Below are positions 44,140 through 51,798 of a stretch of DNA of 64,000 nucleotides, one piece after another. Made by a program: the position numbers and the translations under genes. Positions within the stretch are counted from its first letter, which is position 1, and each line of letters opens with the position of its first letter. The DNA comes from Okamejei kenojei (taxonomy: Eukaryota): the NCBI GenBank assembly GCA_035221665.1, contig CM069160.1, positions 34,286,001-34,350,000 of the forward strand, read 5' to 3'. Below the pieces are notes generated by a model. It did no database searches. It was not told the DNA's origin and was given only the letters and a program-made list of their open reading frames with translations.

Positions 44140-44798
44140 TGTGAGGGATAAAGTGATTAAACCCTATTAAAGAAAGGAGTTTTAAAGAGAATTCAAACAG
44201 AGAGGGGCTGGAGAGAGGATTCTGACACAGCAGTGTCTGAAGGTTGCCAGACCCATCCTTGAGTAAGAAGAGATAGCATTGTATAGCTAGAGAAGGGAGT
44301 GATGTAGAGAGATCCCTATCAGTGGAAAGGAGTGATGGATGGGACCCTTGTCACTATAGCTTAGCTTTAGTACTGATATAGGAAAACTGAGAGGGTTCAC
44401 TAGGAGGTGAATAAAACTGGGCCAGGTCATGAGCAGCTGAGCATGCTTAATAGAATAAATGAATATTACAACACACCCCTGGTCAAGAAAAATTGCTCAT
44501 TAAACCATGAACATGTTTGAAACATGCAATGTATGATATGGGAGGTGCGAGGGGATGTACGGTGGGATGTACCTACAGATTGTGCACCTGCCGACCCTGA
44601 TTGGGAGAAGGGTCCGGAGGGGGATTGAATGTAAGATTTGTGTATAAAGGGGGAGAGATAAATGGTGGTGATCTCTCTGGCTTCGGTGTGTCTCGATGTT
44701 GGAGAGGCACCCGGTCTGCAGACTCGTAAAATAAAGAAATCTCTTGCTTCCAGGATTTAGTCTTTGAGTATTAATTGTGAGCATAAAGGTATCTCACA
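44140..44798 (+). repeat. 5' LTR
   Basis: Matches 51230-51798; contains TATAAA and AATAAA. Confidence 0.93.
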
Positions 44799-44801
44799 AA
44801 T

Positions 44802-44821
44802 TGGGGGGCTCGGTCCGCGAT
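44802..44821 (+). other. Primer-binding site, tRNA-Pro-like
   Basis: TGGGGGGCTCGGTCCGCGAT versus canonical TGGGGGCTCGTCCGGGAT. Confidence 0.75.
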
Positions 44822-45111
44822 CGGCCACTCCTCCCGGCTGCTTGGTGGAGGACAAGGAAGGAGGGGAAGGTGCACCCACTGGCTGATATTCAGCAGTCCT
44901 CTGATCTCCTTGCTTGCCATCAGCAGTTTGAGAGTGATATCCGCTGGAAAAGACCCGGGAAGGGCAAGAGGGGGTGTAAGGTAAATACGTACGGGAGACG
45001 GTCCAAGCGATCTTGTGCACAAGGACCCCAGGTAAAGAAAAACGAACTAAACGCCTTAAGTATTACCTGAGGGCGAACCGGGTCTGTCGGACGGGAATAC
45101 CGACGAGGTAA

Positions 45112-49250: not shown

Positions 49251-49289
49251 ACCCCTAACAGTAATTTTTTTTTAAAAAGCATTGAATGT

Positions 49290-51116
49290 ATAATTGACAG
49301 TATGAAAGGAGCATAGTCGTGGGTATTGTTTTGGCTTTGTATGTAATTGTGGTAAAAGGTATTAATAATTGTGATAAATGTTATCATCCTATTCAATACA
49401 GAGGGGTAATAACCAGATCATTTACCTATCATTCCATGTGAACAAAGTATGCCATGGACCGAAAGACTAGAATCATTTGTAAGAGGGGGGGAAAAAGGAG
49501 AAAGGAGTATTTGATTGCAGGCAATAGGGGGTATATAGGGAAGTTTGGGGCCGTTTACCTGCCCTAAGGGAGAGAGAGATGGGTTTGGTGTACAGTTAGT
49601 TTTCCCTTCTCAGATCGTAAAAGGGGGCAATAGATAAGACGAAGGAGGAAGTAGTAAAAAAAAGAGGTTACTAAGGTAGTAGTCACTAAGCCTCTCCTTC
49701 CCCCACATACTCAGCCTCAAGTGCACCAGACAATGTACGAAGAAATCAAGAAGCAGATCGAAAATCCCTGAAGGAGAAAAAAAAATACTGTTTGTGGACT
49801 TGGCCACCCGGATTGCTGGGACCCTGAATGTGAACTAACTGTTGGGTCTGCGGAGGACCACTGATGAATTCACGCTGGCCGTGGAGAGGATCCATTGTTG
49901 AAATATGGGACCTGATGGGGTGGAACCTGACAGTTTGGACAAGGACCGAGATCCCCAGGTATTGGGTCCTGACAGACGCTCCGGTCGGGGACTGAGTGTA
50001 TCGCTAGGCCCTGGGCAAAGGATGCCGTCCTAGTTAGGCCAGGCAGCCCCTGCCAGCGCATCGTCACCCAGTGGCCCAAATCAGTCCCGAGTGTGGTTGG
50101 CCAGAGGAGCCTAAATGGTATCTAACTAAGAAATATGGGAAAAACTGCGCTATCCGGATGGAGATTGATGGAGTGGAATCAGCCGGGGGACTATGGAACT
50201 GCACCGGGAATAACCCCTTATCAGGGGGATCCCAGTATTGCGAGATATATGGAACAAGGTTGCCTCTAGTGGACACAGGCCCCTGAAGGACTGTTATGGA
50301 TATGTGCATTACAAGGCATAACTCGGTGTTTACCGATGAATTGGCGTGGGACTTGTTTTATTTGGACTGGTGCAACCTGGATTCTTCCTGTTAAACCCCA
50401 AAGAAGGGTGGCCGGTCGTTAGGAACACCTGTATTTGATGACCTATATCGGAAAAAAAAAAAAGGAAAATAGACATTGGAGAATGGGAAGATGATGAATG
50501 GCCACCAGCAAGAATCATCTCATAATACGGACCAGCCACTTGGGCACCGGAATGGATCCTGGGGCTACCGAACACCAGTATACATGTTAAACCGGTTCAT
50601 AAGGCTACAGGCAGTACTGGAGGGTAATTACCAACCAAAAACTGCGGGGGCGCTGGAGATGCTGGCAAAGCAGTTAGACGCAGATGAGAGCAGCAATACA
50701 CCAGAACAGGTTAGCCCTAGATTACCTTACTGGCAGAAGAAGGAGGGGGTTATGGCGGGAAATTTTTTCAACCTCTCTAATTGCTGTTTGAACATCGATG
50801 ATAAATGGACAGGCAGTGATGGACATATCAGAAGGGATCCGGGAAGTTGGCGCATGTTTCCAATACAAAAGTGGAATTTGATTATGGGAACCCAATGGTT
50901 GTTGATTCCATCCTCGGAGGAACATGGTGGGAGGAACGGTGGGACTTGTGTTTCTATTGTGCAGTGGCTGGACTGATCTTTATCCCCTGTTGTATCCCTT
51001 GTTTTAGGGAACTTATTACCAGAAAGTATAAGTCAGATGCAGGCTGTAGTCATGCCTATGGGAGAGAAAGGGGAAATACAGAAAATAATGATAATGCGGC
51101 CAGGGGAAGTTTATGA
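49290..51116 (+). pseudogene. env: ERV env, frameshifted
   Basis: CWVCGG, IGEWEDDEWPP, WGYRTPVYMLNRFIRLQAVLE, QNRLALDY immunosuppressive motif, NLSNCCLNIDD, TM-like LIFIPCCIPC. Confidence 0.85.
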
Positions 51117-51229
51117 TTTACAGGTAGCAGAAGGTTTAGGACGATGTTTAACGTCAGTTCGAATTGAAGGAACTTAAAATGAGGGTTTAATCAGTGTATG
51201 CGTAGCAAAAGAAAAAAAAAGGGGAGGAT

Positions 51230-51798
51230 TGGTGAGGGATAAAGTGATTAAACCCTATTAAAGAAAGGAGTTTTTTTAAAGAGAATTTCAAACAGAGAGG
51301 GGGCTGGAGAGAGGATTCTGACACAGCAAGGAGTGATGGATGGGACCCTTGTCACTATAGCTTAGCTTTAGTTACTGATATAGGAAAACTGAGAGGGTTT
51401 CACTAGGAGGTGAAGTAAAACTGGGCCAGGTCATGAGCAGCTGAGCATGCTTAATAGAATAAATGAATATTACAACACACCCCTGGTTAAGAAATTGATC
51501 ATTACCATGAACAACATGTTTGAACATGCAATGTATGATATGGGAGGTGCGGAGGGGATGTACGGTGGGGGATGTACCTACAGATTGTGCACCTCCGACC
51601 CTGATTGGAGAAAGGGTCCGGAGGGGGGATTGAATGTAAGATTTTGGTGTATAAAGGGGGGGGTGATCTCTCTGGCTTCGGTGTGTCTCGAGTTGGAGAG
51701 GCACCCCGGTCTTTCAGACTCGTAAAAAATAAAGAAAATCTCTTGCTTCCAGGATTTAGTCTTTGAGTATTAATTGTGAGCATAAAGGGTATCTCACA
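51230..51798 (+). repeat. 3' LTR, preceded by polypurine tract 51207-51228
   Basis: Copy of the 5' LTR lacking ~95 bp of U3. Confidence 0.93.

What the first reader, a model, noticed from the sequence alone, without database searches (positions are those of the whole stretch)
44140..51798. Two-LTR HERV-I/HERV-IP-like provirus with ERV3-type env, antisense in the BTN2 intron
Seen: LTRs, 5-bp TSD confirmed by the empty site in BTN1 (~29250-29265), Pro-like PBS, and a gag TAG read-through junction. From recall, gag (IIKGIRE.VP, FVT.SWPDI.KKL.K, EAQKVYVRRDEEKQK) resembles HERV-I/IP10, and env (W.D.EWPP.RII, WGYRTPVYMLNR.IRLQAVLE) resembles human ERV3 env. Close mammal-type motifs in a probable cartilaginous fish bear on the depth or cross-class spread of this lineage. 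The insertion post-dates the BTN duplication and may have helped inactivate BTN2.
Basis: partly seen in the sequence, partly recalled or inferred. Interest (0 to 1): 0.7.

Follow-up and report, generated by a model that had tools for sequence, protein, structure and literature searches.

The report
Young defective retrovirus in ray-like fish
A recent retroviral insertion in an immune-gene intron of a cartilaginous fish belongs to a virus group already known from sharks, birds and humans; it has lost most of its replication genes but kept its envelope gene, so it probably spread by borrowing enzymes from complete relatives.

Summary
The provirus is real: LTRs at 44140-44798 and 51230-51798, 5-bp target duplication confirmed by the empty site in the paralogue, Pro-like PBS, gag TAG, full-length env. 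Gag is of the HERV-IP/HERV-ADP type and groups with skate and catshark elements among bird and reptile ones; env is ERV3-type. That placement is right but not new: a human-ERV-like shark element has been in print since the 1990s, and gamma-like env-bearing ERVs with skate and shark name codes were reported in 2021. Gag is cut by a nested 970-bp retroposon and deletions. Pro-pol is under half its normal length, and contigs from two organisms cross its deletions, so this is a family-wide defective form. The many frameshifts are mostly assembly errors (30 frameshifts to 1 stop in env; LTRs differ by 3-7 substitutions but 27 gaps). Best reading: a young copy of a multi-copy, non-autonomous, env-keeping family mobilised in trans, like human Harlequin. 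A role in inactivating the host gene is unsupported: that copy also lacks its IgC exon in this window. Interest modest.

The parts
44135..44139 (+). left copy of 5-bp target-site duplication
44140..44798 (+). 5' LTR (659 bp; TATA-like 44643, polyA signal 44730); carries a 95-bp U3 stretch absent from the 3' LTR
   Evidence: loose ends show the long form in other copies
44802..44821 (+). primer-binding site, tRNA-Pro-like
   Evidence: core motif typed P in table S6 of PMC4724089
45193..45388 (+). gag remnants: start of MA, then start of CA; about 190 residues between them are missing relative to P0002
45389..45874 (+). 486-bp C-poor stretch inside CA with no match to gag relatives or to the rest of the window; origin unexplained
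45875..46331 (+). gag CA, PF02093 (E 3e-15)
46332..47302 (-). nested antisense retroposon-like insertion with 6-bp microsatellite tail and internal GC-rich tandem repeats
   Evidence: class (Rex1/Babar-type tail) is recalled, not tested
47303..47637 (+). end of CA, NC with degenerate zinc knuckle, gag TAG at 47635-37
47638..49250 (+). eroded pro-pol: short colinear remnants of PR, RT (YVDD at 48506), RNase H (about 48765) and IN C-terminus (PF18697, E 5e-10)
49302..51187 (+). full-length ERV3-type env, frameshifted many times in this assembly; CWVC 49840, ISD 50702, TM anchor present
51207..51229 (+). polypurine tract
51230..51798 (+). 3' LTR (569 bp)
51799..51803 (+). right copy of target-site duplication
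51886..52232 (-). IgV exon of the host copy carrying the provirus ('BTN2'); 2 extra letters in a T run relative to the paralogue
29253..29257 (-). empty site in the paralogue ('BTN1')
28816..30800 (+). paralogue 'BTN1': IgV, butyrophilin-type IgC (PF22705, E 4e-23) and TM exon frames

Best explanation
A recently inserted copy of a multi-copy, non-autonomous class I (gamma-like) ERV family of a cartilaginous fish, probably a skate or ray. Backbone is HERV-IP/ADP-type gag(-pol), envelope is ERV3-type. Shown: it entered by retroviral integration (LTRs, target duplication, empty paralogous site) after the host gene duplicated, although its own pro-pol is too deleted to encode RT, RNase H or integrase. 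Inferred: its RNA, keeping LTRs, PBS, leader and purine tract, was packaged, reverse-transcribed and integrated by Gag-Pol supplied in trans by complete relatives; env was kept because it is made from a separate spliced RNA and stayed useful (spread by reinfection). The nested retroposon probably arrived afterwards. The lineage's presence in sharks, rays, birds, squamates and mammals reflects its known wide host range with host switching.
For: Integration hallmarks. 1665 bp between gag stop and env start against about 830 residues or more of pol in relative P0017; RT, RNase H and IN remnants in order with about 0.6 and 0.95 kb missing between them. Contigs of run X13 (organism B: 48417-48784, 48755-48945) and X1 (organism A: 48776-48886) run through these shortened stretches with 2-4 other letters. 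All four runs cover the element end to end, with thousands of contigs in X1 and X4. Env aligns over 571 codons to uninterrupted relative P0079 (73%) and 422 to P0046 (86%) with 30 and 25 frameshifts but 1 stop. LTRs: 3 substitutions, 27 gaps, 17 of homopolymer type; host copies: 37 substitutions, 9 gaps. A skate protein with gag, RT and integrase domains (P0034) is the nearest named gag relative.
Against: No helper provirus was seen, as no genome is held. The count of pol remnants against P0017 (5) lies within the shuffled range (mean 2.6, max 6); the case rests on their order and landmarks. No single listed contig spans the whole pol region and table 8 was cut. The MA deletion and the 486-bp stretch lie outside the laid stretch, so they may be private to this copy. 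Summed contig depth is not a copy number. Whether env of this very copy is open is not shown.
Confidence: 0.65

Rival explanations
1. An ordinary once-complete provirus that lost pol by deletion after integration and was multiplied with or without flanks; no trans-mobilised family.
For: Nested insertion, 95-bp LTR gap and several gag breaks show post-insertion or assembly damage.
Against: Near-identical LTRs leave little time for several large deletions; the shortened pol is crossed by contigs from two organisms.
Confidence: 0.15
2. The internal structure is largely an assembly artefact (raw long-read gap fill or collapse of several copies), and the true element is more complete.
For: Gap-dominated LTR differences and 30:1 frameshift-to-stop ratio show low base accuracy inside the element; nine N gaps in the window.
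Against: Independent short-read contigs follow the shortened pol letter for letter apart from small gaps; ends and target duplication are clean. Errors explain the frameshifts, not the deletions.
Confidence: 0.1
3. The insertion knocked out a working butyrophilin-like gene.
For: It lies 83 bp past the IgV splice donor in the intron, and the IgV frame is 92% identical to the paralogue over 107 residues.
Against: Antisense orientation; no AATAAA/ATTAAA on the host strand of either LTR. Homology to the paralogue stops at 43331 at another retroposon tail and no second IgC exon exists in the window, so the copy looks truncated for another reason; order of events unknown.
Confidence: 0.1

Closest known systems
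HERVIPADP supergroup (HERV-IP10, HERV-ADP; avian relatives such as ChiRV1)
   Same: Gag motifs in MA and the CA start match the HERV-ADP and HERV-IP consensus by eye; Pro-like PBS; TAG junction; MLV-type IN C-terminus.
   Different: Canonical HERV-IP/ADP env has a different ISD type; here env is ERV3-type. Pol is mostly deleted.
ERV3-1 / HERVERI-type and HERVH48-type env
   Same: Same ISD and surrounding motifs; 51% identity to chimpanzee ERV3-1 over 350 codons; rays, caecilians, frogs, snakes already carry 'ERV3-1 Env-like' annotations.
   Different: Primate ERV3-1 stops before the membrane anchor, this env keeps it; by eye the SU start resembles the HERVH48 consensus more than ERV3-1; HERV3 gag is of another type.
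Lemon shark ERV and HERV-I-related vertebrate ERVs (Martin 1997; Herniou 1998); ERV-GA.a-Ara and ERV-GA.a-Cpu (Chen 2021 preprint)
   Same: Human-ERV-related, gamma-like elements in cartilaginous fish, some with gamma-type env and over 500 copies.
   Different: No sequence comparison was possible; those surveys rest on pol or env and, in the parts read, do not describe a pol-deleted env-keeping form.
Harlequin (human); bovine ERVK D-type, ETn/MusD, recKoRV
   Same: Defective elements mobilised in trans; Harlequin keeps an env of the same ISD type and was proposed to supply envelope in trans.
   Different: Different backbone and host; bovine D-type elements lack all genes including env.

Membership tests
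Class I (gamma-like) ERV | Paired TG...CA LTRs, short target duplication, PBS, purine tract | tested here: met
Class I (gamma-like) ERV | Gag_p30 capsid and MLV-type IN C-terminus | tested here: met
   PF02093 E 3e-15, PF18697 E 5e-10; MLV capsid structures E 4e-11
Class I (gamma-like) ERV | gag stop followed in frame by pro (read-through) | tested here: inconclusive
   TAG then protease-like start in frame, but the frame soon breaks; read-through itself not testable
Class I (gamma-like) ERV | Gamma-type env: CXXC in SU, furin site, ISD, cysteine motif in TM | tested here: met
   PF00429 on relatives; motif is CX7CC as in ERV3-1, not CX6CC
HERVIPADP supergroup | Gag similarity to HERV-IP/ADP consensus | tested here: met
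   by eye against supplement 3 of PMC4724089, first 400 residues only; no alignment score
HERVIPADP supergroup | Placement by Pol phylogeny | not testable with these tools
   RT remnant too short; no human reference among stored proteins
HERVIPADP supergroup | Canonical env of the group (ERVPB1-like ISD) | tested here: not met
   main HERVIP (62 chains) and HERVADP env consensus have another ISD; only two single-chain HERVIP variants share this one
HERV-I strict sense / HERV3 (HERVERI) | HERVERI-type gag | tested here: not met
   HERVI, HERV3, HERVE gag consensus are MLV-like and lack the window's motifs, by eye
HERV-I strict sense / HERV3 (HERVERI) | ERV3-type env | tested here: met
Epsilon-like fish ERVs | Best hits and tree placement with epsilon or ray-finned-fish elements | tested here: not met
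   none among named hits; indirect, since no epsilon sequence was in the trees and many hits are unnamed
Non-autonomous, trans-mobilised ERV family | Shared disabling deletions in many independent insertions plus an autonomous helper | tested here: inconclusive
   deletions crossed by contigs of two organisms; loci and helper not seen

The most novel reading that the evidence does not exclude
Skates or rays host a still-expanding two-component ERV system: a pol-deleted family that keeps a selected, working ERV3-type envelope and is mobilised by (and may supply envelope to) separate gag-pol helpers, with insertions still polymorphic. No cartilaginous-fish order is among the 37 orders with invading ERVs listed in PMC10435555, whose screen required intact pol and so would miss it.
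Probability: 0.2. Interest if true: 0.6.

Novelty: new member of a known kind. Interest (0 to 1): 0.3.

Why it matters
It adds a young, well-bounded elasmobranch member to a lineage whose spread across sharks, birds, reptiles and mammals is a standard example of retroviral host switching, and shows the HERV-IP/ADP-type gag paired with an ERV3-type envelope. If the pol-deleted, env-keeping form is a true family, RT-based surveys undercount ERV activity in cartilaginous fish, and it gives a fish parallel to the untested idea that Harlequin-like elements supply envelope in trans.

Tried and rejected
No whole genome held, so no copy census. Scans for related loci found nothing: metagenome contigs with the window CA and with P0002, viral contigs with P0079. 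Rfam: 0 matches. Pfam found nothing on 12 of 16 window frames, including all env pieces. Profile search for pol remnants gave only IN and a weak PR hit; one search returned no alignments and timed out. No RNA holder listed. Presence or absence of this insertion in other samples: no listed contig bridges the LTR-host junction, and host-exon contigs carry the paralogue's letter at 8 of 10 listed places, so undecided. Atlas gave only TLV_coat clusters. Earlier findings: none. Martin 1997 is not held. Rejected: epsilon-like placement; strict HERV-I; frameshifts as sign of great age; transfer from mammals specifically. No fold or complex was run, as none would change the verdict.

Full report
Observation. 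LTRs span 44140-44798 and 51230-51798, begin TG and end CA, and are flanked by one 5-mer that occurs once at the homologous position of the inverted paralogue at 29253-57. The host exon next to it is an Ig V-set domain on the minus strand; the paralogue has V-set, butyrophilin-type IgC (PF22705) and TM exon frames, so 'butyrophilin-like' is fair. A Pro-like PBS and a purine tract are present.

Age and sequence quality. The LTRs differ by 3 substitutions in 544 aligned bases (7 in 545 with strict gap costs) but by 27 gaps, 17 of homopolymer type; the host copies differ by 37 substitutions and 9 gaps in 754 bases. Env aligns to the uninterrupted relative P0079 over 571 codons with 30 frameshifts and 1 stop. 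Neutral decay does not give such ratios (established knowledge); noisy long-read sequence does. In one search the small length differences listed (12 shown, 157 not shown) are mostly shared by all four runs, and one of the three LTR substitutions is read as the 5' LTR letter in all four. So the insertion is much younger than the host duplication. With the shark rate assumed in PMC4422223 the LTR figures give at most 12-29 million years, with the mammalian rate 1-3; the true figure may be near zero.

Between the gag stop and env lie 1665 bp. Short pieces matching RT, RNase H and IN of P0017 fall in the right order, with about 0.6 and 0.95 kb missing between them (the number of pieces, 5, is within the shuffled range of up to 6, so order and landmarks carry the argument; IN is firm). 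Contigs from organism B (run X13) and organism A (X1) follow these shortened stretches, which points to a family trait. All 30 bins are covered in three runs and 28 in X13; summed depth over the element is about a thousandfold that over the host exon in X1, which is no copy number but fits a multi-copy family. I laid 4 of 24 listed runs, on 47300-52600 only.

Relatives. The CA piece found 45 proteins among 245 candidates: skate 82% (69% of the query), an unnamed record 72%, godwit 69%, catshark 68%, electric ray 67%, other birds 57-66%, one mammal 30%. In a tree of 39 rows, which I chose mainly from the 141 stored proteins matching most of the query, the window groups with skate, catshark and P0002 (97/88), inside a radiation of bird and squamate elements; electric ray and godwit sit at an open fork beside it (the window row fills only 45% of columns, and long-branch warnings concern deeper nodes). 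The env piece found 19 proteins among 178 candidates, most named ERV3-1-like, from ray, echidna, swallow, caecilians, squamates and the primate ERV3-1 cluster. In a 20-row unrooted env tree (window not included, P0079 and P0046 as stand-ins, P0053 left out) the stand-ins join the electric ray at 90/92 and lie with echidna and swallow, apart from primate ERV3-1 (99/98). The host is thus most likely a skate or ray (inference).

Human reference groups. I compared by eye with the consensus proteins in supplements 3 and 4 of PMC4724089, which were shown cut at about 400 letters. Gag motifs fit HERV-ADP best and HERV-IP next; HERVI, HERV3, HERVE and HERVH48 gag do not fit. The ISD is that of HERVE, HERV3, HERVI, Harlequin and HERVH48, not of the main HERV-IP or HERV-ADP env. 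It works like a gamma-type ERV with a HERVIPADP backbone and a swapped ERV3-type envelope; it is not a member of any one human family.

What is known. PMC4422223 (part 1 of 2 read) states that a lemon shark ERV close to a human ERV was reported and attributed to cross-transmission. PMC1224870 (passages) cites Martin 1997 for HERV-I-related viruses across vertebrates; that paper itself was not held (its content beyond the title is recalled). The preprint 10.1101/2021.11.23.469661 (passages and parts 2-3 of 6; supplements closed and may list this family) reports gamma-type-env ERVs in 6 cartilaginous fish, three with over 500 copies, and names ERV-GA.a-Ara and -Cpu (species read from the codes by me). 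PMC6001957 (passages) finds cartilaginous-fish retroviruses scattered over the tree and frequent host switches. PMC10435555 (passages, section 6, supplement searches) lists no cartilaginous-fish order among hosts of invading ERVs. PMC10924933 (passages) and PMC4724089 (passages) describe trans-complemented defective ERVs and propose Harlequin as an envelope donor. PMC4977317, PMC11089739, PMC4133949, PMC3230843, PMC5753468, PMC12287698: passages only, background. Searches showed no description of a pol-deleted, env-keeping family in elasmobranchs; the library lacks most subscription papers and repeat databases.

Host gene. Homology between the two copies ends at 43331, at another retroposon tail, shortly before the paralogue's IgC exon, and no second IgC exon is in the window (an N gap at 34250-34749 could hide one). 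The IgV exon has 9 non-synonymous and 2 synonymous codon differences and 2 extra letters in a T run. Neither LTR offers a polyA signal on the host strand. The provirus may have landed in an already broken copy; causation is not supported.

Verdict. Real, correctly placed in broad terms, known in kind. The residual interest is the apparent family-wide loss of pol with a kept envelope in a young, multi-copy elasmobranch ERV. Interest 0.3.

Noticed in passing
window 45389-45874: 486-bp C-poor stretch inserted in gag CA with no match to stored gag relatives or elsewhere in the window; may be a family trait, a captured piece or assembly noise.
   Followed up: partly
window 4099-4278 (-), 17553-17732 (+), 57563-57751 (-), 30614-30800 (+): Four copies of a butyrophilin-like TM exon region (about 81% protein identity to the one in the intact copy) without nearby Ig exons for three of them: a decaying, rearranged butyrophilin-like cluster.
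   Followed up: partly
run X8, contig fitting window 51886-52236: The fit stops exactly at the IgV splice donor with 189 further letters unaligned, as a spliced transcript of a paralogue would; this suggests X8 is RNA, and it also holds contigs along the whole ERV. Strand, level and locus of origin cannot be told.
   Followed up: partly
P0004 (godwit gag): A shorebird gag is 69% identical to the window CA and sits beside the elasmobranch elements, apart from the other 11 bird rows, at an unresolved fork: possible sea-to-shore host switch or contamination.
   Followed up: no
window 40400-43331: Fragmented LINE (PF09004 hits) with a tail of the same type as the insertion nested in gag; it marks the end of homology between the two host copies.
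   Followed up: partly
P0051, P0054 (swallow): Predicted bird proteins joining pol domains to an ERV3-type env region; their pol is 50-59% identical to pol of HERVIPADP-type bird elements, so a similar backbone-envelope pairing may exist in birds.
   Followed up: partly
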